Shown here: piece after piece, positions 5,854 through 62,503 of the stretch | Numbering within the stretch: position 1 is the stretch's first letter | Layout: each line of letters starts with the position of its first letter | From: Eledone cirrhosa | Taxonomy: Eukaryota | Assembly (NCBI GenBank): GCA_964016885.1 | Contig: OZ024742.1 | Location: 134,726,001-134,790,000 of the forward strand | DNA length: 64,000 nucleotides | Reading direction: 5' to 3' | Notes under the pieces: model-generated | Databases searched by the model: none | What the model saw: the letters and a program-made list of their open reading frames with translations, nothing else | What the model was told of the DNA's origin: nothing | Position numbers and translations under genes: made by a program

Positions 5854-6006
5854 ATATATATATATATAAATTGGAATAAATGCTCTGAAATAGCGATATA
5901 TATGTGAATATAGACATAGAATATTCGAAAATATTCTGTATGTTTATAATAAACATTTTGAAGACCTAATCGCTATAGAATAGAATACGTCACGTATTAC
6001 AATTAG

Positions 6007-6095
6007 ATTCTCGATAAAAGCAAGGGAAGTAATCTACGCGTTTCATTCTTGTTAGAAATCATCAGGACTACATATCCAGTGCTTTTATCGAGAAT
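6007..6095 (-). ncRNA. Type I hammerhead ribozyme (repeated at 6317, 6627, 6937, 7247)
   Basis: Minus strand GUAGUC-CUGAUGA-UUUCUAACAAGAAU-GAAA-CGCG-UA-GAUUAC, with a distal 16-bp perfect stem I extension. Confidence 0.88.
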
Positions 6096-7490
6096 GACAC
6101 AGCTAGAGACTTATAGAATACTTAGCTGTGTACAGGAACTGGTTTGAAAGAGCGGTTGCCGGTCCGGCAGAAATTAGAAATTGGAATAAATGCTCTGAAA
6201 TAGCGATATATATGTGAATATAGACATAGAATATTCGAAAATATTCTGTATGTTTATAATAAACATTTTGAAGACCTAATCGCTATAGAATAGAATACGT
6301 CACGTATTACAATTAGATTCTCGATAAAAGCAAGGGAAGTAATCTACGCGTTTCATTCTTGTTAGAAATCATCAGGACTACATATCCAGTGCTTTTATCG
6401 AGAATGACACAGCTAGAGACTTATAGAATACTTAGCTGTGTACAGGAACTGGTTTGAAAGAGCGGTTGCCGGTCCGGCAGAAATTAGAAATTGGAATAAA
6501 TGCTCTGAAATAGCGATATATATGTGAATATAGACATAGAATATTCGAAAATATTCTGTATGTTTATAATAAACATTTTGAAGACCTAATCGCTATAGAA
6601 TAGAATACGTCACGTATTACAATTAGATTCTCGATAAAAGCAAGGGAAGTAATCTACGCGTTTCATTCTTGTTAGAAATCATCAGGACTACATATCCAGT
6701 GCTTTTATCGAGAATGACACAGCTAGAGACTTATAGAATACTTAGCTGTGTACAGGAACTGGTTTGAAAGAGCGGTTGCCGGTCCGGCAGAAATTAGAAA
6801 TTGGAATAAATGCTCTGAAATAGCGATATATATGTGAATATAGACATAGAATATTCGAAAATATTCTGTATGTTTATAATAAACATTTTGAAGACCTAAT
6901 CGCTATAGAATAGAATACGTCACGTATTACAATTAGATTCTCGATAAAAGCAAGGGAAGTAATCTACGCGTTTCATTCTTGTTAGAAATCATCAGGACTA
7001 CATATCCAGTGCTTTTATCGAGAATGACACAGCTAGAGACTTATAGAATACTTAGCTGTGTACAGGAACTGGTTTGAAAGAGCGGTTGCCGGTCCGGCAG
7101 AAATTAGAAATTGGAATAAATGCTCTGAAATAGCGATATATATGTGAATATAGACATAGAATATTCGAAAATATTCTGTATGTTTATAATAAACATTTTG
7201 AAGACCTAATCGCTATAGAATAGAATACGTCACGTATTACAATTAGATTCTCGATAAAAGCAAGGGAAGTAATCTACGCGTTTCATTCTTTTTAGAAATC
7301 ATCAGGACTACATATCCAGTGCTTTTATCGAGAATGACACAGCTAGAGACAATATTCTATGTCTATATTCACATATATATCGCTATTTCAGAGCATTTAT
7401 TCCAATTTCTAATTTCTGCCGGACCGGCAACCGCTCTTTCAAACCAGTTCCTGTACACAGCTAAGTATTCTATAAGTCTCTAGCTGTGTC

Positions 7491-7579
7491 ATTCTCGATA
7501 AAAGCACTGGATATGTAGTCCTGATGATTTCTAACAAGAATGAAACGCGTAGATTACTTCCCTTGCTTTTATCGAGAAT
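7491..7579 (+). ncRNA. Type I hammerhead ribozyme (inverted unit)
   Basis: CTGATGA 7521-7527, GAAA 7542-7545, GUA site ending 7551. 7515-7520 pairs with 7552-7557; 7491-7506 pairs with 7564-7579. Confidence 0.88.
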
Positions 7580-7677
7580 CTAATTGTAATACGTGACGTA
7601 TTCTATTCTATAGCGATTAGGTCTTCAAAATGTTTATTATAAACATACAGAATATTTTCGAATATTCTATGTCTATA

Positions 7678-8130
<453 letters not shown>

Positions 8131-29195: not shown

Positions 29196-29731
29196 ATTTT
29201 ACTATACGCATTTCAAAAACAAATATCATCCAGGGACGATATTTGCGTTCTCATCAGATAAAATAGGGAGACATGATAAGAAGAAATAACAAGATGGTTA
29301 AAAAAGTTCCATGTACTTTATTATGCGCATTTCAAAAACAAATTCATCCAGGGACGATATTTGCGTTCTCATCAGATAAAATAGGGAGACATGATATGAA
29401 GCTTAAAAAAGACACTTGTGAGCAAGGTAGTGTCTAAACAACATATGATAAATAAATGTAAAAGGATATAGGAGATTGGAAAAAAGGAAAGGAAGGTGAG
29501 AAAAGTAAGGAAGAGGAAGGAAGGAAAGGAATCTCCTATATACTTTTAAATTTATTTATCAAATGTTGTTTAGACACTACCTTGCTCACAAGTGTCTTTT
29601 TTAAGCTTCATATCATGTCTCCCTATTTTATCTGATGAGAACGCAAATATCGTCCCTGGATGAATTTGTTTTTGAAATGCGCATAATAAAGTACATGGAA
29701 CTTTTTTAACCATCTTGTTATTTCTTCTTAT
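29196..29731. mobile_element. pLTR-like partial tandem plus 200-bp foldback carrying three hammerheads
   Basis: HHRs at 29196-29265 (-), 29314-29383 (-) and 29624-29693 (+): UAUUUUAU-CUGAUGA-stem II-GAAA-UGCGCA-UA-AUAAAGUA. Arms 29276-29477 and 29530-29731. Confidence 0.85.
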
Positions 29732-34971: not shown

Positions 34972-37313
34972 GAGGAATATGGGAGCAGGATGTTAAACAT
35001 AATGACCAGGCAATGTGGATTGAGACAGTACAAAAGGAGATTAGTGAACAGGCACACCAACAAACTGATTTGAGAGTATCACAGTGAAACTCTTAAGGGG
35101 CAGGCCAAAAAACTAACCAACTGGAAATCGCCAGGCCCAGATGGTGTGCAGGGGTATTGGATTAAACATATAACATCCCTCCACACGAAACTGACAACCA
35201 TGTTCAATGACTGATTGATGTCAGGTGAGGTACCACGGTGGTTGACAAAAGGTACCACAGTTCTGGTAATGAAAGACCGAATCAAGGGTAATGATGTTAC
35301 CAACTAAAGACCTATCACATGTCTGTCCGTAATGTGTAAACTGTTAAGAAGCATTGTGTCTGAGGAAATCTACCATCACCTCCACACAAACAACTTGTTA
35401 CCGGACGAACAGAAAGGATGCCGAAAGAAGTCCCGTGGTATAAAGGACCAGTTACTTATTGATAAGACGGTAATGAGGAATTGCAAGAGGAGACACACTG
35501 GTCTTGCCATGGGATGGATAGACTACAAAAAGGCATTTGACATGGTGCCTCAGTCTTGGATCACCAAAAGCCTAGAGATCTTCAGGGTGGCAGATAACAT
35601 CAGACAGTTGTTGAGCCAAAGTATGAAGTCCTGGAAAACAGAGTTAACATCGGCTGGAGAATCCTTGGGAGGCGTGAAGATCAAGAGAAGTATCTTCCAG
35701 GGAGATAGTCTGTCCCCTCTGTTGTTTGTACTTGCCCTGATGCCCCTGACTATTATACTGCGAAAAGCGAGAGAAGGAGTTGGGAAAGAGAGAGCTTACC
35801 ATCAAGCTTACCATCGATATTAAGCTCTTCGGGAAGAATGTGAAGGAGTTGGGTGTGCTTGTTGACACTGTCCGTATTTTCAGCAATGATGTATGTATGC
35901 AATTTGGTATTAGAAAGTGTGAAGTCCTTGTGATGAAGAAGGGTAAATTGAGCAGAAACAACGGAATCCATGTACCAACAGGTGAGATGATAAAGGAAAT
36001 TAACACTGAAGAAGAATACACATATTTAGGCGTTCTGGAGGCTAATGACATCAAGAACAAAAAAATGAAGTAATTGATAAGATCTGAATATATTCGGAGA
36101 GAAAGGAGCGTATTAAAATCACATCTGAACAGTAGGAATGCCATAAGTGCAGTAAATTCCCGAGCTGTGTCTATTATTAGGTACAGTGCGGGAATTCTGA
36201 GATGGAATGTTGCTGAACAAAAAGAAATGGATAGTAAGTGTAGGAAGCTATTGACTATCTACAACATGTTCCACAAGAGGAGTGATGTCGATAGACTCTA
36301 CTTAAGGAGTTCTGAGGGTGGAACAGGTCTTATCAGCATAGAGGTCTGTGTTCAGATGGAGAAAAACAAACTACACAAATACGTGACAGATAGTAGGGAG
36401 CCAATGCTCAGAATTGTACTGTAGAAGACAATAGACAAGGGGATGTCCAAGGAGGAAATAACAAGGAGAAAGAGCAACCTTCATGACAAACCCCTTCATA
36501 GTACCTTCTTTGAGAAAACTGAATTCGGAGATCCACAGACATGGAATAGGTTGAAAAGAGGAGACCTTAAAAAGGCTACAGAAGGAATGCTAATGGTTGC
36601 GCAAGAGCAGGCCCACAAAACAAAGTGGCTGAAACACCATATTTACAAGGAGAGGGCTAGCTTACTGTTTAGGATCTCTGGAGAGAGAGAGGAGACTTTG
36701 GCTCACATTGTATCCGACTGTAAACACCTAGCCCAGACTCACTATAATGGCTGGAGACATGATGTGATGGGCAGTGTGATCCACTGGCACCTATGCAATG
36801 TAAACAATTTACCACATTCTGAGAAGTGGTATGTGCATAAGCCAGAGTCGGTGATAGAAAACGATCAGGTGAAGGTGCTGTGGGATTTTAGGATACAGAC
36901 GGACAAGAAACTGGAACACAATAGACCTGACCTGGTTGTTTTGGATAAGGAAAAAAGATGGTGCCTGATTGTGGATATGGCCTGCCCATTCGACATGTGA
37001 GTGCAAGAGAAGGAGAGGGAGAACATTAACCGATACCAGGACTTAAAGAGGGAGGTAAAAAAGGATTTGGAACTGCCATGAAGTCAAAGTGGTCCCGATT
37101 GTCATAGGTGCACTAGGTACTATCTCAAAGAGTTTCCAAGGATGGTTAAAGAAAATTGGCCCAGTCCCGCTTTTTGGAACACTTCAAAAGGCATGATTGC
37201 TGGGAACAGCAAGAACCTTCCGATACGTCCTGAATATCTGAGGCTGAAAGTAGTGGCTTGATATTCATTTCAACAAACTTTCCAGTTAACTAACATCAAT
37301 GACTGAGACTCAA
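34972..37313 (+). mobile_element. R4/Dong-clade RLE LINE, 5'-truncated degenerate copy
   Basis: Colinear with about 39685-42046. RT ([18 protein letters not shown]), RHD and PD..D endonuclease motifs, many stops. Followed by (AAT)n. Confidence 0.92.
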
Positions 37314-38399: not shown

Positions 38400-41300
38400 T
38401 TGGGGCCCTTCTCTGCCTGTGTGTTTGTTTGTTTATGTGAGTTCGTATACAGCGTGGTGATAATGCCACACAAGGGCCAAGTGGAATGGCGGATCCACAG
38501 ATGGCTATGTAACCATACATTCGCCAATCCTCGATAAGAGTGTTTAAATATCGAACATAAACAGTTCGAATAACGGTGAAATGGAGACTAGAACGTCATG
38601 TGACAGACTCTCACCCAACAGGTGCCCACTGGCTCAGCAGCAGGAACCTGACTGTCAACCAAATACTGCTGATGTTGGAGGAAGGAGAAGAAGGAAAGGG
38701 GCCAGAAGCAACTGGACGAAAGAATTGAATAGAACTGTTATGCAATGCTACCTGAAAAGTAACCCCAAGGAGAGGGGCTACAGGAGACGGATGCATAACA
38801 TCTGGAACGAGATTGGTTTATTTAAATTAGATGAACAAAAATTGGCCGGGCAGGCTCGGGTAATAAGAACTAATGGGTGGATAAGCGAGCTGGAACTGGA
38901 GGAACTGAGCAGAGAGAATGGCTTGGAGATGGCGGGTGTAGTATGCCAGACAAGCGAGCCAGTGGGAAATGAAGGTGAAGAGGTCCTGAGAACGGAGGAA
39001 CCACCCGAAGCAGACAATGATCTGAATACTGAGATAAATAATACCTGGAACAGAGATACGGCCACTGAGGAGATGGATGCTGACGGGCTAGGACAAGATT
39101 CGGTTGACATCCTAAATTTAGTGGTAGATGAATTGAACAATGATAGTGGGAGACCTATGAACCTAAGATTTGTAGACAGGAAAAAGTTAAAAGAAACAAC
39201 AGCTAAGGTAAACAAAGTCATCCCATACCTTGAGGCGAGGAGCCTTTACCAGTGCAACAATATCCTCAAAGCAACAGCAAATACGGTGAGGAAACTACTT
39301 GGTATAAAAGCGAGAGGAAACAACAGACAAGAAAGAGCAGAGCCGTGGTGGAAGAAGCGACTGAGTGGGCAAATCGGGGAAATGAGAAATGACATAGGAA
39401 AGCTTGAGTCCCACTGAATGGGACACTAAAAAACATAGGCACTAGAAATAGACTGGAAATAAAATACAAAACTAGGAGGAAAAAGCTAAATATTATCATA
39501 GAGGAACTGAAGCAACGCATTGTAGCAAAGAGTGCAAAAATCAGGCGATACGAGAACAGAGTCAGTCAGTATAAACAGAACCGCATGTTCGACAACAACC
39601 AGAAGATGCTGTTTGGACAGCTTGAGGGGAAAGAAAGAGGCAACGACTTGATCCCTGGGGCGGAGCAAACTAAAACATTCTGGAGAGGAATATGGGAGCA
39701 GGATTTTAGACATAATGTCCAGGCAGGGTGAATTGAGACAGTACAGAGGGAGATCGGTGAGCAGGCACAACAACAAACTGATTTGAGTATCACAGTTGAA
39801 ACTCTTAAGGGGCAGGCCAAAAAACTAACCAACTGGAAATCACCAGGCCCAGATGGTGTGCAGGGGTATTGGATTAAACATTTAACATCCCTCCACCCGA
39901 AGCTGACGGCCATGTTCAATGACTGCTTGGTGTCGGGTGAGGTGCCAGAGTGGTTGACAAAAGGTACCACAGTTCTGATAATGAAAGACCGAATCAAGGG
40001 TAATAATGTTACCAACTATAGACCTATCACATGTCTGTTCGTAATGTGGAAACTGTTGACGAGCATTGTGTCTGAGGAAATCTACCATCACCTCCACACA
40101 AACAACTTGTTACCGGACGAACAGAAAGGATGCCGAAAGAAGTCACGTGGTACAAAGGACCAGTTACTTATTGATAAGATGGTAATGGGGAATTGCAGGA
40201 GGAGACACACTGATCTTGCCATGGGATGGATAGACTACAGAAAGGCATTTGACATGGTGCCTCATTATTGGATCACCAAAAGCCTGGAGATCTTCAGGGT
40301 GGCAGATAACATCAGACAGTTGCTAGGCAGGAGTATAGGGTCCTGGGAGACAGAGTTGACATCAACTGGAGTATCCTTGGGAAGCGTGAAGATCAAGAGA
40401 GGTATCTTCCAGGGAGATAGCCTGTCCCCTCTGTTGTTTGTCCTTGCCCTGATGCCCTTGACCATTATGCTGCGAAAAGTGAGAGCAGGATACAAGTTGG
40501 GAAGCGGAGAGCTTACCATCAATCACCTCCTCTTCATGGACGATCTTAAGCTCTTCGGGAAAAGTGAGAAGGAGTTGGATGTGCTTGTTGAAACTGTCCG
40601 TATTTTCAGCAGTGATATATGTATGCAGTTTGGTATTGGTAAATGTGGAGTCATTGTGATGAGGAGGGGTAGGTTGAGCAGAAGTAACGGGATCCAGATA
40701 CCAACAGGTGAGATGATAAAGGAAATTGACTCTGAGGAAGGATACAAGTATTTGGGCGTTCTGGAGGCTGATGGCATAAAGAACAAAAAAATGAAGGAAT
40801 TGTTAAGAACTGAATACATTCGGAGAGTAAGGAGCGTATTGAAGTCACATCTGAACAGCAGAAATGCCATAAGCGCAGTAAATTCCCGAGCTGTGTCTAT
40901 TATTAGGTACAGTGCGGGAATTCTGAGATGGAATGTTGCTGTACAAAAAGAAATGGATAGGAAGACTAGGAAGCTATTGACTATCTAAAACATGTTCCAC
41001 AAGAGGAGTGATGTCGATAGACTCTACCTAAGGAGATCTGAGGGTGGAAGAGGTCTTATCAGCATAGAGGACTGTGTTCAGATGGAGAAAAACAACCTAT
41101 ACAAATACGTGACCTATAGTAAGGAGCCAATACTCAGAACTGTACTGAAGGAGGGGACAGTAGGTCAGGGGATGTCCAAGGAGGAAATAACATCAAGGAG
41201 GAAGAGCAGCCTTAAGGGAAAATCCCTTCATAGTACCTTCTTTGAGAAAACTGAATTTAGAGATCCACAGACATGGAACTGGTTGAGAAGAGGAGACCTC

Positions 41301-42046
41301 AAAAAGGCTACAGAAGGAATGCTAATGGCTGCGCAGGAGCAGGCCCTCAAAACGAAGTGGTTGAAGCACCATATCTACAAGGAGGAGGCTAGCCCACTGT
41401 GCAGGATCTGTGGAGAGAGAGAGGAGACTGTGGCTCACATTGTGTCCGAGTGTAAACACCTAGCCCAGACCCACTATAAGGGCTGGAGACACGATGTGAT
41501 GGGCAGGGTGATCCACTGGCACCTGTGCAAAGTAAACAATTTACCACATTCTGAGAAATGGTATGAGCATAGGCCAGAGGCGGTGATGGAGAACAATCAG
41601 GTGAAGGTGCTGTGGGATTTTAGGGTACAGACGGACAAAAAACTGGAACACAATAGACCTGACCTGGTGGTTGTGGACAAAGAAAAAAGATCGTGCCTGA
41701 TTGTGGATGTGGCCTGCCCGTTCGACACGAGAGTGCAAGAGAAGGAGAGGGAGAAAATTAACCGATACCAGGACCTAAAGTGGGAGGTGAAAAGGATTTG
41801 GAACTGCCATGAAGTCAAAGTGATCCCGATTGTCATAGGCGCACTGGGGACTATCAACAAAGGTTTCCAGGGATGGTTAAAGAAAATCGGCCCCTTCACG
41901 CTTTTTGGAACGCTTCAAAAGGCATGCTTGCTTGGAACAGCAAGAACCCTCCGATACGTCCTGAATATCTGAGGCTGCAGGTAGTGGCTTGATATTCAAT
42001 CCAACGGACTTTCCAGTTAACCAACATCAATGACTGAGATTCAAGG
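38400..42046 (+). mobile_element. R4/Dong-clade RLE LINE, near full length (5' boundary uncertain)
   Basis: Single disrupted ORF, about 75-bp 3'UTR, then (AAT)n at 42047-42111. Confidence 0.93.
38581..41972 (+). pseudogene. RT-zinc knuckle-RLE polyprotein (about 1130 codons) with three lesions
   Basis: N-terminal WTKELN..GYRRRMHNIW, HLLFMDDLKLF, CRIC..H..C, RHD, PDLV..IVDVACP..K. Frameshift near 39415, TGA at 39729, TAA at 40986. Confidence 0.92.
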
Positions 42047-43100: not shown

Positions 43101-44224
43101 TCGCTTTTCTTTTCTCTCACACCCTTCTCTGGAGGAATTCTCTGATTTACAATGGCCTGGAGAAAGGATGTGTTCACCAGGTTTAAACATGCCTTAAGAA
43201 CCGCCTTATGTCAATATAGCGTCACTAAGATTCCTTCGGGAGTTACGGGTTTTACCATACCATATACCTATCAAGAGAGAAAGAGAGCGTTAGATAGAAT
43301 GCAAGTGAAATATATATATAAAGAAATACACCTAACTTCCCCTGCTGCCACATACATCACAAGATTTTTTTTATTACAATTTTTGCCCAATAGTGTATTC
43401 ATTTCAAGAAAGTCAAAGTTAGAGCATTAATATTAATATCTGTTAACAGACTCCCACGTTGACGGAAATAATTATATGTAAGTACAAAAGTAAATCTAAA
43501 CATTATGAATGAAAATTTAAGCAATTTCTTTTGAGCAACTTAAGATCTGCGGGAATTATTAGTAAAGTTGTTATTCGAATTAGAAATAAATACGAAATGT
43601 ATATGTTTTATTTGCAAGTGTGTAGGCATATGAGTATACAATGTGAAATGAATTATCTATTTATCCCATTTTTCTCCATCTAACCATTTGATTCCATCTC
43701 TCCGTCTATCTAGCTGTTGTCTATTTCTCTTCATTGAGGTATGTATGTATATAAGAGGTTGTGATTTTGTGCGTTTAACTGTCCGTGTGGGTGAGTGGGT
43801 GGTGTGTGTAACAATAATTGTGTATTTTTCTCGTCCTTTGTTTTAATTTGTGTATATAAATGGATATATTTAATAAGAAAAGTAAACAAATATTAACTAC
43901 TTATGTTCTACGTGTTAGTAAGAACATCTCAGTAGGTGTAAAGAAACAGATGTTAGGCTTCTGGCATTATGTTAGTTCTAATGTAATTTCTTAAACGCAA
44001 GCACAATTAGTATTGCTTTTTCATACTGACAGTCAATATATAAATTTTCAAAACGACATTTTACACCCACACCCACACGCACACGTACACGCACCCGCAC
44101 ATGCACACACAAACACACATATATATATATATATTTATATATATAATATGTTGTATATATATTTATATATACATATTTATATATGGTATATATATATATA
44201 TATTTATATGTATATATATAAATG

Positions 44225-44263
<39 letters not shown>

Positions 44264-44372
44264 TAAGTATGCATATATATAAAGATATATATATATATAT
44301 ATATATAAATATATATATACATATATATGTATATATATAAATATCTCATATATTATATATATATAAGTATAT

Positions 44373-44426
<54 letters not shown>

Positions 44427-44456
44427 TATACATATATATATTCATACATACATATA

Positions 44457-44528
<72 letters not shown>

Positions 44529-44653
44529 CTTGACCGACCAGTTTGTCAGGCGCCGTTCGGCGCCTCTGGTCACAGCACGTCGTGCTGTTTTAGCCATATG
44601 ATAACGCCATATTATAACGCCATCCCACTTTTAGCCATATGATAACGCCATCC

Positions 44654-46430
44654 CATTTTACTAGCTTCAAGAACGCGTCTACACGACGTGAGAAAGAATC
44701 CCAAAAGGCGGAGGGGGAGATAGTCACGCGATATAACGGTCGAGAAACAGAGCGGTTGGGTGTGGATGCATTCATGTATATGTGTGTGTCCGCATGTATC
44801 TGTGTGTTTCTAGATATATTGTTAATAACTCCCTCTGGTCGAGTAATCTTTGAAGTGTGGTGACTGCTGGAAAGCTGCCATTACTCATACTTCTCGCCTC
44901 CTTCACCACCTCTTCTACGGCTTCGATATAAATACCCCCTCCGCCTCCGTGGTATTTTCTTCGGGGTTATAAGAGGCTTAGCTCTGTTTCTCGACCGTTA
45001 TATCGCGTGACTATCTCCCCCTCCGCCTTTTGATATTCTTTCTCACGTCGTGTAGACGCGTTCTTGAAGCTAGTAAAATGAGGTACCCTCTTGATAAGTC
45101 GGCAGACCTCGCAAAGACTCTATATCTTTATGATGTATTGTTTTTGTTTATGCCACGAAACTACGTAGTCGAGGAATCTTGGAGCAGTTTAGGTATGATA
45201 CATTTTATTACTAATTATATCTAAATGTTTCTTCTCTCTTCATAATGTATCTTTAACTCTGATACTGGTTCAGTCTAATTCAACCGGATTGGTCTGTCCC
45301 AGTCATTCATTGAGCAACATCGGTGAGGTTGGCACCATTAACTCATGGTTGGGTGTGGATACATTCATGTATATGTGTGTGTCCGCATGTATCTGTGTGT
45401 TTCTAAATATATTGTTAATAACTCCCTCTGGTCGAGTAATCTTTGAAGTGTGGTGACTGTTGGAAAGCTGCCATTACTCATACTTCTCGCCTCCTTCACC
45501 ATCTCTTCTACGGCTTCAATATAAATACACCCTCCGCCTCCGTGGTATTTTCTTCGGGGTTATAAGAGGCTTAGCTCTGTTTCTCGACCGTTATATCGCG
45601 TGACTATCTCCCCCTCCGCCTTTTGGGATTCTTTCTCACGTCGTGTAGACGCGTTCTTGAAGCTAGTAAATTGAGGTACCCTCTTGATAAGTCGGCAGAC
45701 CTCGCAAAGACTCTATATCTTTATGATGTATTGTTTTTGTTTATGCCACGAAGCTACGTAGTCGAGGAATCTTGGAGCAGTTTAGGTATGATACATTTTA
45801 TTACTAATTATATCTAAATGTTTCTTCTCTCTTCATAATGTATCTTTAACTCTGATACTGGTTCAGTCTAATTCAACCGGATTGGTCTGTCCCAGTCATT
45901 CATTGAGCAACATCGGTGAGGTTGGCACCATTAACTCACGGTTGGGTGTGGATGCATTCATGTATATGTGTGTGTCCGCATGTATCTGTGTGTTTCTAAA
46001 TATATTGTTAATAACTCCCTCTGGTCGAGTTATCTTTGAAGTGTGGTGACTGCTGGAAAGCTGCCATTACTCATACTTCTCGCATCCTTCACCACCTCTT
46101 CTACGGCTTCGATATAATTACCCCCTCCGCCTCCGTGATATTTTCATAGGGGTTATAAGAGGCTTAGCTCTGTTTCTCGACCATTATATCGCGTGACTAT
46201 CTCCCCCTCCGCCTTTTGGGATTCTTTCTCACGTCGTGTAGACGCGTTCTTGAAGCTAGTAAAATGAGGTACCCTCTTGATAAGTCGGCAGACCTCGCAA
46301 AGACTCTATATCTTTATGATGTATTGTTTTTGTTTATGCCACGAAACTACGTAGTCGAGGAATCTTGGAGCAGTTTAGGTATGATACATTTTATTACTAA
46401 TTATATCTAAATGTTTCTTCTCTCTTCATA

Positions 46431-46436
<6 letters not shown>
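44654..46436 (+). mobile_element. 593-bp tandem array (2.8 units) with 100-bp 5' inversion; retrozyme-like
   Basis: Units start at 44754, 45347 and 45940. 44654-44753 is the inverse of 44981-45080. (TA)n at the 3' end and about 130 bp upstream. Confidence 0.9.
45081..45179 (+). ncRNA. Type I hammerhead with U3-A8 core (copies 45674-45772, 46267-46365)
   Basis: AGGT-ac-CCTC, TTGATAA (45091-45097), GTcGGCA..46 nt..TGCCAC, GAAA (45157-45160), CTACGTAG, TC, GAGG-a-ATCT. Confidence 0.78.
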
Positions 46437-46480
<44 letters not shown>

Positions 46481-46490
46481 ATATATGTGT

Positions 46491-46593
<103 letters not shown>

Positions 46594-46734
46594 GAGTTTA
46601 TGTTGGTTGTATACCAACACCTCAGTATGCAGGCTGGAGCACTCGACGAAGTGCGCAGGTTGGTTTGGTTACTCCGGAGTAGTGTAAATCAAGTTAAATA
46701 AAAGTCAAATGATTAAAATTTAGCTTCGTTTATT

Positions 46735-46789
46735 ACTGCTATATATATTTCAGTGACAGCCATCTTTGGCTGTGACCTCTTCAGGCAGT
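46735..46789 (-). ncRNA. Type I hammerhead in pLTR
   Basis: Mirror of 49293-49347. Confidence 0.9.
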
Positions 46790-47984
46790 TTGAATTAGTA
46801 TGGTATAGACAAGTACATATGTTGTTAGGGTGTATGATATTGTCAATACTCTGATATGCCCAGTTCCTTGTTGGGTTGTTAATTCACTGGGGAACTGGAG
46901 TCATATGAATTCAAACAAACGAATTTTAGTGTCACAGGTCCCCTTCTCCTCTCATTGGTCAGTTATTAGTGTTGTCATTGTTGGAGTTAGCTTAAAAATT
47001 GATAAAATGGTAGAAGGGACAAGGTGTTGAAGGAACAAAATATCAAAAAATGTGTCAAACTTCCCATTGTTCAGTTCTGAGAGCATTCCTCAGTCAGAAG
47101 TCTATAGAATTCTTTCTGGGTTGAGGCTCCCTGTAGTGTTTATGCCTGCTATTGTTCAGTACATTTGACCTCCACCATTATTTTGGTACTGTTGTTGTTG
47201 TAGTGGTCAGCTTATATCTTGCTGCTGCTAACAATTTAGAAGTATTCAGTTTGTGTTTTCTCTTCATCCCACCCGCCACCATCGTAGTGGTGGTGGCGGG
47301 GGGTGGGTGGGGTTATTTCATGTATATGAAGAAATATAAGGCAATAAATGAAGAAAACAGAAGATAAATAAATAATATAATAAAATAAAATAATTAATAT
47401 AATTTGTGTAATTTGAAAATAAATAAATAAATAGAGAATAAAGAATAAAGAGTAAATGAGAGATTGGTGAAAAAGTAATGATAATGTATATGGAGAAGTG
47501 AGAAATAATGTAGGATAAAGTGTGTGTGTGTGTGTGCTATAACCAATCTCAAGGTCAGAATATGTTGGATAGATTGGTATGATACAAGATGTTAAGATGA
47601 GATATTCAATGTGTTTGTGTTATAATCTATCTCAACTTAAAATAAATATAAATATAAGGTTATACAGTGAAGAGGGCAGAAAACAAATAACAAATTAATA
47701 TAGAGAAATCAAGATTTAAGATTGGAACTTTAAAGTCAGAAATCTGGTAAATTAAAAGTGTTTGTGTTATAGATGTTGGCCAGATTATTATGGCTGTGTC
47801 CGATTCTGTCTCTAGGCTATCATGGTGTCTGCTCCGCCTGGGTTGTTCCCTATGGCTTGAGGGGAGTTCACAACCTAGGGTGTTGTAATTGCCCATATAG
47901 CTTGAGGGAGGTCTGGCCGAGAGGTGTTTTCATGTTCTGTAGAAGTCCCTATAGCTTGAGGGGAGTTCACATCTTCTTGTGTTG

Positions 47985-48520
47985 CTACTGTCCATATATT
48001 TTGAGAAAGGTCCCGGCTCTAAGGTGTCTGCATGTCCCGAAGAAGTCGGTTCTGAGGTTTATCAGGCCGCTTCCTCCTCTTAGTATCTCGAGGGTCTCGT
48101 TCAGGCATAGTTTGCATATGCAAGATCCCCCTTTATCGGGTGGTACTTTCCTGATTATGTACCAGGCCAGAGAGTATGGGGTCCTGTCCAGCTTAAGCTT
48201 CCAGATCAGGTCGGAGAGAGCTGTGCTTTTCCTTTTGGCCTCCTTCTTGAATGAATGGCGATGGTTGTACCAGCGGTCCTTAAAGCTCGTTGATGTGGCT
48301 CCTATGTAGAGGTGTTCGGAGTTGGGGGTTTTAACCCTACAACCGTACACTATGTTCTTCTTGAGACATTCATTACCAAGGGGGCATGATTCGGGGTTTC
48401 TACAGTTGCAGAGGGTGGGCGGCCTCTGCGTGCTTAGATTAGGGTTCTCATTATGTGTTACATGTTGGTCTTCCCCCATGCTCGGTGGGGGGTCCTTGGG
48501 TCTGTTTGTGTTTCTTGATC
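47985..48520 (-). CDS. PLE GIY-YIG endonuclease domain (uninterrupted fragment)
   Basis: CNC..CPLGNECL..IVY..YIGAT..FKDRWYNH..CKLCLNE..LIN..CRH. Confidence 0.85.
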
Positions 48521-49292
48521 CATAACCAAGGCAGTGGTGAAGAGTGTCTCGGACAGGATCTCCAGCCTGTCCGCAAGTAAGGAAATATTCAACAACCACG
48601 CGGAATATTACAACGCAGCTCTAAAGACCCAAGGACCCCCCACCGAGCATGGGGGAAGACCATTTTCAAATTACACAAATTATATTAATTATTTTATTTT
48701 ATTATATTATTTATTTATCTTCTGTTTTCTTCATTTATTGCCTTATATTTCTTCATATACATGAAATAACCCCACCCACCCCCCGCCACCACCACTACGA
48801 TGGTGGCGGGTGGGATGAAGAGAAAACACAAACTGAATACTTCTAAATTGTTAGCAGCAGCAAGATATAAGCTGACCACTACAACAACAACAGTACCAAA
48901 ATAATGGTGGAGGTCAAATGTACTGAACAATAGCAGGCATAAACACTACAGGGAGCCTCACCCCAGAAAGAATTCTATAGACTTCTGACTGAGGAATGCT
49001 CTCAGAACTGAACAATGGGAAGTTTGACACATTTTTTGATATTTTGTTCCTTCAACACCTTGTCCCTTCTACCATTTTATCAATTTTTAAGCTAACTCCA
49101 ACAATGACAACACTAATAACTGACCAATGAGAGGAGAAGGGGACCTGTGACACTAAAATTCGTTTGTTTGAATTCATATGACTCCAGTTCCCCAGTGAAT
49201 TAACAACCCAACAAGGAACTGGGCATATCAGAGTATTGACAATATCATACACCTAAACAACATATGTACTTGTCTATACCATACTAATTCAA

Positions 49293-49347
49293 ACTGCCTG
49301 AAGAGGTCACAGCCAAAGATGGCTGTCACTGAAATATATATAGCAGT
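49293..49347 (+). ncRNA. Type I hammerhead in inverted pLTR
   Basis: ACTGC-CTGAAGA-GGTcACAGCCA aaga TGGCTGTcACT-GAAA-TATATA-TA-GCAGT. Confidence 0.9.
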
Positions 49348-49391
49348 AATAAACGAAGCTAAATTTTAATCATTTGACTTTTATTTAACTT

Positions 49392-50860
<1,469 letters not shown>

Positions 50861-59619: not shown

Positions 59620-62503
59620 TTGTTAATAATGTTAATCATATTTTTGAAAAGAGTGAGTGTATTCATCTCTTCCTGCCCTAGTATGAAGCAATCATCTAGG
59701 TATCTCTTCCAATTACTTTTGAGATGTGTAAGGAAAGAGTCTCCGAATAAAAGAATAGATTGCTTGTAGATTTGTTGTTCGTGGAATCCCATGACTAGGT
59801 TGGCGTATGTTGGGGCTACCTTTGTGCCCTTCGATTTATCGGTATGTTGAGTCATTGAAAGTAAAGAAATTATTCTCTAAGATAAATCGGAGTCCCTCAA
59901 TAATGAAGTTTTTATTGATGCGTGTATGTATTTTAGGTTGGTGAGTGTCTAGCCAAAACTGGATTGCTGTTATTCTATAGATATGGGGTGTGTTAGTGTA
60001 GTGGTTTACTACGTCAAAGGAGAGAAGAATAGTGTTTTCACTTACTGTTTTGGGTAGGTGGTTCAGTATATCAAGGTCATCCCGTATGAAGCTCTGTATA
60101 TGTTTTAGTAAGAGCTTTAGTAGGATGTTCAGGAAATTGCTAAGTCTGTCGGTTTCACATGCAGGGCCTGCTATAAATGGTCTGAGTGTTAAGTCTTCTG
60201 CTGGTGTTATTTGTATGTATTTGTTAGTCGAAGTGTCGCAAGCATTGCTCATGAGTTTGCATTTATGTATCTTCGGTAATTTGAAATGGCTTATGTATTC
60301 AAATTGTTTTCTTGTTCGGCTACTGCGATATTTGTGTAGTAATGCTAGGATATTCTCCATTGTTTTAGTTTGTTTGTAGTTTACTGTTTTTTCGTAGTCT
60401 AAGATTTTGAGTGCCAGGTCTCTATAGTAGTCAGTGTCCATAATGACCATTATTGGTTTCTTTGGTGGTTATTTCAGTGTTGTTTTGCAGTGTGAAAAAT
60501 TATTTCCAATAGTATTTGGAGAGGTTCGATTTCGTGTGTTTATTTGTAATTTGTTCATAGGGAAATTTGATGGTGCGTTTGCAGTAGGTGTCCGGTGTTG
60601 TATTCCTCCCTTTCTGTGGGCAGAAATCACATTTGTTTCTGACTATTGATTCGTCTTCAGTGTTGGTGTCACTGGAGAAGTATTCTATTAGTCTGAGTTT
60701 TCTGCAGAATTCCATGATGTCATCTTTCATTTCGGGGAAGTTAGATTTTTGTGGTGTGGGAGTAAATTTCAGTCCCTTACTTGATATGTTAATCTGTGTG
60801 TTAGTTAGTGATACCTTTGAAAGTTTAATTATCTTCGACTTCTCATGAGTCGGGGCCATCGGGTGTGCTGGTAGTTCATGTCTTGTTCCTAAAAAGGAAT
60901 GTTGTTTTGGTTGTAATTGTAGTCTGCTTGTCTGTTTTGTATAGGTCTGTAGTTTGTTTTTTTCATGAGAGTTAATGTGGTGATGGGAGTGGAGTCTGTT
61001 TTAGTTGTTATTGTGTAAGGGTTCTGTTATGGGTTCATGTGGTCTGGGTGGGTTTCTTCTGGAATGGATAGTGTTGATGTTGTGGGGGTTGTTTTTTTGT
61101 AGTGTTGGGGGTGATACATGTTGTAGTTTTTAATGTGGAAATATTTTGTTGGGATTTCATATGATCTTGTGGGTTTCTTCTGGAGTGTATGGTGTTTGTG
61201 TTGTGGGTTAGTTCTATGTTGTTTTGGGGTTAGTTTCTGTAGGAGATACTATTGTGGGTACCTATTTTGTGGTGGTTGGGTATGTTTCTTTTACTGTAGT
61301 TGGTTGTATTTGGTCTGTGTAGAGAGGGGTTTTGTCTGTGGCTGATGTGTTTTGGGGTTGGAAGTATGCATGTCACTGAGGGGGTCCTAGCTTTGTTTAA
61401 TTTCTTTGTAAAGGGGGTTATCTGTGTGATGCATTGCTTTGAAATTCTTCTTGGATATGCTCATTCTAAAAACAGATGGGAAAATAGAAACAGACATCTT
61501 TTATAAACCCACGGACTCCAAAAGGTACCTCCTATTCACATCAAATCAACCAAAACATACCAATGTTAACATTTAACGTATATGCATCATATTATCAGAC
61601 CCAGCTAAAGGGGAACATAGACCAAATGAACTCAAAACACACTTATTTTAAGAGCCTTCCCACTTGACATAATTAACAACGGAATAGACAAAGCAGAACA
61701 CGCACATTTTCATCAACCCAACAACCCCAAAGACAGAACCACAAACAATACCTTACCCTATGTATCCACATTCAACCCCAGAAACACAGAAATGTTCGAC
61801 CTCCTACACAAAACCTCCCCATTCTATTTAAAGATGAAAAGATTAAAACAATCCTAGAACCACACAAGATCATCAAAAGCAAAAGGCAACCAAAATTACT
61901 AAAACACATTCTAACTGAAACAAAGATACACAAACCTATCTCCAACCTTACGGTAACAAAATGCGGAAGAGCAAACTGTGTAACATGCCTATACTTACCT
62001 GAAGGACATAAATTCACGTTTAAAGATGGCCAAACGTTCACCGTGAAAAACAACTTCACTTGCAACTCGGAGAACCTGATCAATGCGGTGGCTGTCGACA
62101 TAACTACGGGTGTGTCATTACGCAAAAGAATGACCATCCATCGCCAACAAATCCGAGGCGTAAACACAAGGAACATTCCCTTGAATAAACATTGCAGATT
62201 GTGCAGGAATGAATCTACCCAACTTTAAAATCATATCTCTTTACAAGTGCGACGCAGCTTTCACTCAACAACAAAGAATAAATAAGGATAAACTATTCAT
62301 TAACAAATTTAAACCAAAACTAAATATGTAATCACCCCCATTAAATCCCACACAGGCCACAAAATAATGTTTAGTTCTTTACAATGTTCTGGATTTTTGG
62401 TAAAAAAATGTTAAAATTCCCATCACAAAGAGATCTGTGACAAACAGGCTGAAAAAAACACACAGACCCCCCCCCCCCCTACACACACATATATGTGGAT
62501 TAT

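What the first reader, a model, noticed from the sequence alone, without database searches (positions are those of the whole stretch)
44654..46436. 593-bp array with a non-canonical U3-A8 hammerhead and enlarged stem II
Seen: 2.8 units, each with CCUC-UUGAUAA-stem II (46-nt insert)-GAAA-palindromic ACUACGUAGU-C-GAGG. Both core changes (C3U, G8A) restore the 3-8 pair. Known: the 3-8 Watson-Crick pair is required for catalysis, and compensated variants can be active but are missed by CUGANGA searches. Inference: a retrozyme-like family with a unit longer than typical metazoan retrozymes, and so plausibly undescribed. It has the same layout as the 310-bp array (5' inversion, tandem, TA end).
Basis: partly seen in the sequence, partly recalled or inferred. 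Interest (0 to 1): 0.9.

Follow-up and report, generated by a model that had tools for sequence, protein, structure and literature searches.

The report
Hidden hammerhead retrozyme family, swapped core
This array is one of thousands of copies of a 593-base non-coding repeat that carries a predicted self-cutting RNA motif with a swapped core base pair and likely spreads as RNA copied by another transposon's enzyme, and a related lineage appears to have changed that pair back through a mismatched step that still spread.

Summary
The array is real: 2.84 units of 593 bp plus a 100-bp inverted arm, ending in (TA)n. It has three type I hammerhead motifs with U3-A8; the middle one is damaged (A15.1G). 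The family has about 6,000-6,900 motif copies in this 3-Gb genome, and Rfam misses it. Insertions end at two fixed sites next to (TA)n, 163 nt apart, and 15 of 19 two-armed insertions use one site on each arm. This is Penelope-like (PLE) anatomy. Best reading: a non-autonomous PLE / non-LTR retrozyme copied from a cleaved, circularised RNA. U3-A8 is already known from schistosome PLEs, and 593 nt is within the published unit range, so neither is new. The unexpected result is in a sister lineage: copies run U3-A8, then U3.G8, then C3-G8 on a tree, and the wobble form was inserted many times independently. Cleavage, expression and the autonomous partner were not shown.

The parts
44753..46436 (+). 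Direct arm: 2.84 head-to-tail 593-bp units, non-coding (longest ATG frame 48 aa), 41% GC
44654..44753 (-). Inverted 100-bp arm (unit positions 499-593 and 1-5; unit position 1 = 45076), joined by short microhomology to a SINE-like repeat
45080..45174 (+). Hammerhead 1 (type I, U3-A8): pseudoknot 5' strand 45080-84, stem I 45087-90/45171-74, core 45091-97, stem II 45098-104/45151-56, palindromic stem III 45160-69, predicted cut after C45170
45105..45150 (+). 46-nt stem II insert: ACCUC pseudoknot 3' strand (45106-10) followed by a two-part hairpin
45673..45767 (+). Hammerhead 2, with A15.1G at 45753, likely decayed
46266..46360 (+). Hammerhead 3, intact core, predicted cut after C46356
46430..46561 (+). 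3' end at unit position 175 (46436), 80 nt past the predicted cut, fused to (TA)n; inferred priming site
45405..45417 (+). Second family end site (unit positions 337-345), internal in this array, used as an outer end in other copies
44526..44653 (+). Flank, not part of the element: 5' part of a high-copy SINE-like repeat with a 28-bp duplication, after (TA)n 44119-44525

Best explanation
This is a non-coding, dispersed tandem repeat of the non-LTR retrozyme kind that is likely a non-autonomous Penelope-like element, whose RNA is predicted to cut itself at a pseudoknotted U3-A8 hammerhead, likely closes into a 593-nt circle, and is likely copied into (TA)n sites by a PLE reverse transcriptase-endonuclease supplied in trans. 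Shown: repeat structure, copy number, conserved hammerhead anatomy, fixed ends at (TA)n, copies that run across the predicted cut site for several units, and closer likeness of units within one insertion. Inferred: transcription across two motifs, cleavage after C17 (as monomer helped by the pseudoknot, or as dimer through the palindromic stem III), ligation by a host ligase, priming by the nicked (TA)n strand on UA-rich sites 80 and 243 nt past the cut, more than one turn round the template to give tandem arms, and a second priming on the other strand to give the inverted arm.
For: Core positions fixed while N7 varies (U 86, A 13, C 9, G 4 of 112 relatives). On 46 aligned motifs 83.4% of cells pair against 77.2% shuffled, 70 double changes against 20. 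Stem III is a perfect palindrome in 66 of 111 relatives, 11 different palindromes. G[AG]GG lies at -14..-5 in 86 of 112 against 4, 0 and 2 in control windows. Of 33 insertions, 19 are two-armed; all 19 have one end at position 175 and 15 have the other at 337-345; none has the same site twice (tallied by hand). Units differ by 0.9% within an insertion, on either arm, and 3.2% between insertions. A young GIY-YIG-type PLE family in this genome shows the same two ends 160 nt apart next to (TA)n. Papers: PLE tandem/inverted structure, one-sided tail and (TA)n bias (PMC8557442); circle model (PMC4209133; PMC7229834).
Against: No cleavage or expression data. The unconstrained fold of the 110-nt motif is not the hammerhead (-27.1 against -24.6 kcal/mol constrained, pseudoknot not modelled; z -1.8). 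In one lab hammerhead only the G3-C8 swap rescued activity, all other changes in the motif being low (PMC9901934). Only 1 of 9 frog retrozyme dimers cleaved in vitro. No autonomous PLE sharing this sequence was found in the loci checked. An uncut multimeric transcript would give the same DNA. Search patterns fixed CCTC, GAAAC and GTC, so those columns are not evidence, and relatives are not independent, which inflates.
Confidence: 0.72

Rival explanations
1. The element is a non-autonomous PLE, but the template is an uncut read-through multimer from existing arrays; the hammerhead is weak or dispensable for a round of mobilisation and is kept only by long-term selection.
For: A U3.G8 form, expected to cut poorly, was inserted many times. 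Low or absent in vitro cleavage is common in PLE and retrozyme motifs. Naiad PLEs spread without canonical hammerheads.
Against: Stems and core covary across families down to 62-66% identity; the lineage regained a Watson-Crick 3-8 pair; C3.A8 occurs only in 2 of 111 scattered rows. Within family A, stems vary less (0-1.0%) than the unit body (2.6-3.0%) (loci partly chosen for an intact core).
Confidence: 0.2
2. The arrays are orphan pseudo-LTRs or satellite DNA: single PLE ends later expanded by unequal crossing over, with no RNA circle of their own.
For: Units within an array are more alike than between arrays; the 2026 preprint raises local tandem amplification.
Against: Arrays seen are short (about 1-6 units), scattered over many contigs, keep fixed 3' ends and variable 5' ends, and both arms of inverted insertions share private variants in 7 arrays. 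No coding sequence adjoins any unit checked.
Confidence: 0.06
3. The hammerhead likeness is chance.
For: No Rfam hammerhead match even at E 10.
Against: Covariation, variable N7, palindromic stem III, and canonical C3-G8 members of the same lineage.
Confidence: 0.02

Closest known systems
Metazoan non-LTR retrozymes (coral, mussel, axolotl; PMC7229834) and vertebrate retrozymes (bioRxiv 10.64898/2026.07.22.740005)
   Same: Dispersed non-coding tandem repeats, GC under 50%, one type I hammerhead per unit, palindromic stem III, link to PLEs
   Different: U3-A8 core, 46-nt stem II insert with a pseudoknot instead of the usual loop-loop contact; unit above the 170-400 nt of 2020 but inside 51-972 bp of 2026; circles not shown here
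U3-A8 minimal hammerheads of Schistosoma mansoni Cercyon PLEs (PMC4209133)
   Same: Same compensated core pair in a PLE context
   Different: Those are minimal motifs, mostly single and heterogeneous; these have a full stem III and pseudoknot and sit in young tandem arrays
Endonuclease-bearing PLEs that target (TA)n (Neptune, Naiad; PMC8557442)
   Same: Tandem and inverted insertions, extension at one end only, (TA)n targets
   Different: No ORF; extension is 163 nt rather than 30-40 bp; no sequence match to an autonomous element found
Pseudoknotted hammerheads, including human C10orf118 (PMC3088659)
   Same: Base-paired contact between the stem I side and stem II
   Different: Here the 3' strand lies in an internal loop of a long stem II and the motif is in a high-copy mobile element

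Membership tests
Type I hammerhead ribozyme | Core U4 G5 A6 N7, A9, G12 A13 A14, A15.1-U16.1, H17 | tested here: met
   Units 1 and 3; unit 2 has A15.1G. N7 varies among relatives
Type I hammerhead ribozyme | Watson-Crick pair between positions 3 and 8 | tested here: met
   U3-A8 in 99 of the first 100 listed family copies with both positions free
Type I hammerhead ribozyme | Three stems with covariation, stem I open | tested here: met
Type I hammerhead ribozyme | [quoted passage not shown] | tested here: met
   Predicted pseudoknot; partner present in 86 of 112, flanking pair U-A 37, U-G 20, C-G 17, C.A 2; not probed
Type I hammerhead ribozyme | Self-cleavage after H17 | not testable with these tools
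   Needs an in vitro assay
Type I hammerhead ribozyme | Match to an Rfam hammerhead model | tested here: not met
   No match at gathering score or at E 10; the long insert and swapped core are the likely reason
Non-LTR retrozyme | Dispersed tandem repeats with a type I hammerhead in each unit | tested here: met
Non-LTR retrozyme | Non-coding, GC under 50% | tested here: met
   48 aa longest ATG frame, 41% GC
Non-LTR retrozyme | Unit length in the reported range | tested here: met
   593 bp: outside 150-450 bp, inside 51-972 bp
Non-LTR retrozyme | Expressed as linear and circular monomer RNA | not testable with these tools
   No run on record as RNA was listed
Non-autonomous Penelope-like element | Tandem and inverted insertions with an extension at one end only, (TA)n targets | tested here: met
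Non-autonomous Penelope-like element | Sequence shared with the pseudo-LTR of an autonomous PLE | tested here: inconclusive
   None in the loci held; genome not searched exhaustively
Autonomous Penelope-like element | ORF for reverse transcriptase and GIY-YIG endonuclease | tested here: not met

The most novel reading that the evidence does not exclude
A clade of pseudoknotted, long-stem II hammerhead retrozymes, invisible to CUGANGA and Rfam searches, records a catalytic core pair evolving step by step (U3-A8 to U3.G8 to C3-G8) with the wobble intermediate itself amplified; the pseudoknot buffers the wobble so that it still cuts and circularises, which makes these families a natural mutagenesis series for hammerhead catalysis and for whether cleavage is needed for PLE-driven mobilisation.
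Probability: 0.4. Interest if true: 0.78.

Novelty: new variant of a known kind. Interest (0 to 1): 0.58.

Why it matters
Two open questions become testable. First, which enzyme moves animal retrozymes: a 2020 review says their sequence gives no clue; here the insertion ends follow the same two-site, (TA)n rule as a young coding PLE in the same genome. Second, whether hammerhead cleavage is needed for PLE-type mobilisation: three related subfamilies differ at the 3-8 core pair and all spread, so their cleavage rates can be set against copy number. It also shows that thousands of motifs in one animal genome escape standard descriptors.

Tried and rejected
Rfam found nothing relevant. Sequencing runs: no RNA holder listed; contigs of four runs hold the unit and show joints to (TA)n at 45250 and 45412, but their library type is not on record, so they say nothing on expression; whether those runs are RNA or DNA stays open. 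The PLE fragment fused to the inverted arm in L004 looked like the partner, but it lies in a 3.5-kb inverted duplication and its family shares no sequence with the unit. PLE fragments near C3-G8 copies are separate insertions in the one locus read in full (L182); the others were judged from tblastn coordinates only. A short-stem II pattern gave 8 matches against 8 controls; one (L075) proved to be a real relative. The left flank is a separate SINE-like repeat, not part of the unit. A script slip mis-indexed the upper stem II pairs (constrained fold used instead) and a regex mis-cut stem III in 37 rows (stem I, stem III and H17 counts taken). Earlier scan findings: nothing returned. Primary papers on C3U and G8A kinetics and on PLE hammerhead dimers were not held.

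Full report
Observation. The window has a direct arm of 2.84 units of 593 bp (44753-46436, 97.7% identity between units) and a 100-bp inverted arm (44654-44753). It ends in (TA)n at 46434-46561. Three hammerhead-like motifs begin at 45087, 45680 and 46273. Unit 1 reads as a type I hammerhead: stem I CCUC/GAGG, U3 U4 G5 A6 U7 A8 A9, a 6-bp stem II with one bulge around a 46-nt insert, GAAA, the palindrome ACUACGUAGU and C17 at 45170. Unit 2 has A15.1G. All three units carry a private change that shortens stem I from the family's 5 bp to 4. The unit is 41% GC with no ATG frame over 48 aa on either strand when read as a circle. Rfam gives no hammerhead match.

The family. The own genome (G000, 3.0 Gb) holds 6,872 exact matches to a core pattern and 5,995 to a second pattern, both with 0 control matches. 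With positions 3 and 8 left free, 99 of the first 100 listed are U3-A8 and 1 is U3.G8. The best copies are 96-98% identical. I examined 35 loci, which reduce to 33 insertions (tallied by hand). Outer 3' ends fall at unit position 175-180 or 337-345, 80 and about 243 nt past the predicted cut, almost always against (TA)n; 5' ends vary. Nineteen insertions have two opposed arms; all 19 end at 175 on one side, 15 end at 337-345 on the other, and 4 end elsewhere (317, 522, and near position 5 in the window and L004). None uses the same site on both sides. Two of the 15 (L044, L047) are neighbours and may be one duplicated event. Units differ by 0.9% within an insertion (74 same-arm and 33 opposite-arm pairs) and 3.2% between insertions (4,395 pairs); the nearest piece was in the same array for only 56 of 97 pieces, as young subfamilies are nearly identical. 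Arms can each run for more than one unit across the predicted cut site. A linear cleaved monomer primed at 175 could give only 80 nt, so the template was a circle or an uncut multimer (inference).

Relatives and structure. Pattern searches that allowed C or U at 3 and A or G at 8 found 211 and 62 matches (controls 1 and 2), from older copies of this family (77-81% identity) to families at 62-66% or alignable only at the motif. On 46 aligned motifs, 83.4% of cells pair against 77.2% in shuffles and at most 45.8% in slid registers, with 70 double changes against 20. The rows are related and the patterns fixed CCTC, GAAAC and GTC, so this is support, not proof. Among 111-112 distinct motifs outside the main family (2 chance-like loci left out), N7 varies, the first four pairs of stem I hold in 94-103 of 111 and the five pairs of stem II in 90-104 of 112. 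Stem III is a perfect palindrome in 66 of 111, in 11 forms of 6-12 nt, and the central four bases are self-complementary in 67 of 91 longer stems, which a simple hairpin would not need and a dimer would; the palindrome duplex is -12.9 kcal/mol against +1.5 for the hairpin. A G[AG]GG strand lies just 5' of stem I in 86 of 112 against 0-4 in three control windows, complementary to CCUC in the stem II insert, and the flanking pair covaries. I read this as a pseudoknot; in the window it is 45080-84 with 45106-10. The free fold forms that helix but not the hammerhead (-27.1); the hammerhead fold is -24.6 without the pseudoknot, and in a circular fold of a whole unit stems I and II form in the minimum-energy structure (z -5.3 on 40 shuffles).

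The core pair changes in a sister lineage. A 703-nt family gave 72 matches with 0 controls: by hand count 40 C3-G8, 24 U3.G8, 8 U3-A8 and 0 C3.A8. I fetched all U3 copies not already held and 20 regions covering 22 of the 40 C3-G8 matches. A tree of 79 rows (18 of 97 dropped for short or distant matches; positions 3 and 8 masked) is a ladder: a U3-A8 grade, a star of mostly U3.G8 copies, and within it a clade of 21 C3-G8 plus 1 U3.G8 (100/99, bootstrap not fully settled). A quick tree of 117 rows rooted on the window's lineage gives the same order, with every deeper lineage U3-A8. The node uniting U3.G8 and C3-G8 copies is only moderately supported and a few single rows break the pattern, as decay would. 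U3.G8 copies have many different 5' ends and share the lineage's two 3' ends (+312 and +445) at (TA)n; four on one contig share a 5' end and are one duplicated insertion. So a U3.G8 template was inserted on the order of twenty times among the copies seen. Either the wobble core cuts well enough here, perhaps helped by the pseudoknot, or cleavage is not needed for every round.

Mechanism. The ends match PLE anatomy: tandem and inverted insertions, an extension at one end only, and (TA)n targets (PMC8557442, passages). The window's 310-bp array, with a canonical core, has ends 37 nt apart, the usual 30-40 bp. A young coding PLE family here has a 469-bp pseudo-LTR and ends 160 nt apart. I therefore infer cleavage, ligation to a circle, and target-primed reverse transcription by a PLE enzyme, with the two nicked strands priming at the two sites. 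I found no coding PLE joined to or alike to any of these units in the loci held, so the partner is unidentified.

What is known. U3-A8 was reported in Schistosoma PLE motifs, about 1,300 hits (PMC4209133, parts 1-2 of 4 read) and as natural covariation, said to be active in vitro by citation (PMC3088659, section 8 and passages); pseudoknots occur in about 40% of hammerheads there. Pairwise mutagenesis of one type III hammerhead found only the G3-C8 swap rescued (PMC9901934, passages), which counts against strong activity for both U3-A8 and U3.G8 in that context. Retrozymes of 170-400 nt form circles in three animals (PMC7229834, passages); a 2026 preprint gives 51-972 bp, ties them to PLE pseudo-LTRs and saw cleavage in 1 of 9 (parts 1-3 of 5). 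A review notes no clue to the mobilising enzyme (PMC7761336, passages). Searches for a natural U3-G8 hammerhead and for this family under a guessed taxon found no report in the held library; subscription papers, preprint supplements, paper supplements and repeat databases were not seen and may list it.

Verdict. A real, very abundant retrozyme family with a well-supported but untested hammerhead. It is a new variant of a known kind. The core swap and the length are not new; the pseudoknotted long-stem II clade, the two-site end rule and the amplified wobble intermediate are what raise it. Interest 0.58.

Noticed in passing
window 5868-7680: 310-bp two-armed array with six canonical CUGAUGA type I hammerheads (five on -, one on + at 7515-7557); both ends at (TA)n, 129 and 166 nt past the predicted cut.
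   Followed up: partly
window 46711-49392: Inverted-arm PLE insertion with a GIY-YIG fragment (47985-48620, -) and minimal C3-G8 hammerheads whose stem III is UAUAUA, at 46784 (-) and 49298 (+).
   Followed up: partly
window 49396-50585, 59836-62228: Further broken PLE-like reverse transcriptase and endonuclease fragments; family labels are from recall of motifs, Pfam gave no match.
   Followed up: no
window 19405, 20563, 29257-29632, 52236, 55777: More short hammerhead-like motifs with C3-G8 cores, several repeated in other loci.
   Followed up: no
window 38548-41972: LINE-like element with RVT_1 domain in several frames, and older copies at 35308-37000.
   Followed up: no
L134:2047-2515 and 6248-6715: Young coding PLE with a 469-bp pseudo-LTR holding a hammerhead-like motif with C at position 4, and two 3' ends 160 nt apart.
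   Followed up: partly
L148-L149 (G000:C2:384.268-384.277 Mb): 3.5-kb inverted duplication at 99.4% identity that ends where the retrozyme's inverted arm begins.
   Followed up: no
L170-L187: A sub-branch of the C3-G8 clade has A at position 17 and a changed stem III palindrome.
   Followed up: partly
L135:6168-9901: Array of at least six 597-bp units of the same family at over 99% identity, the longest seen.
   Followed up: no
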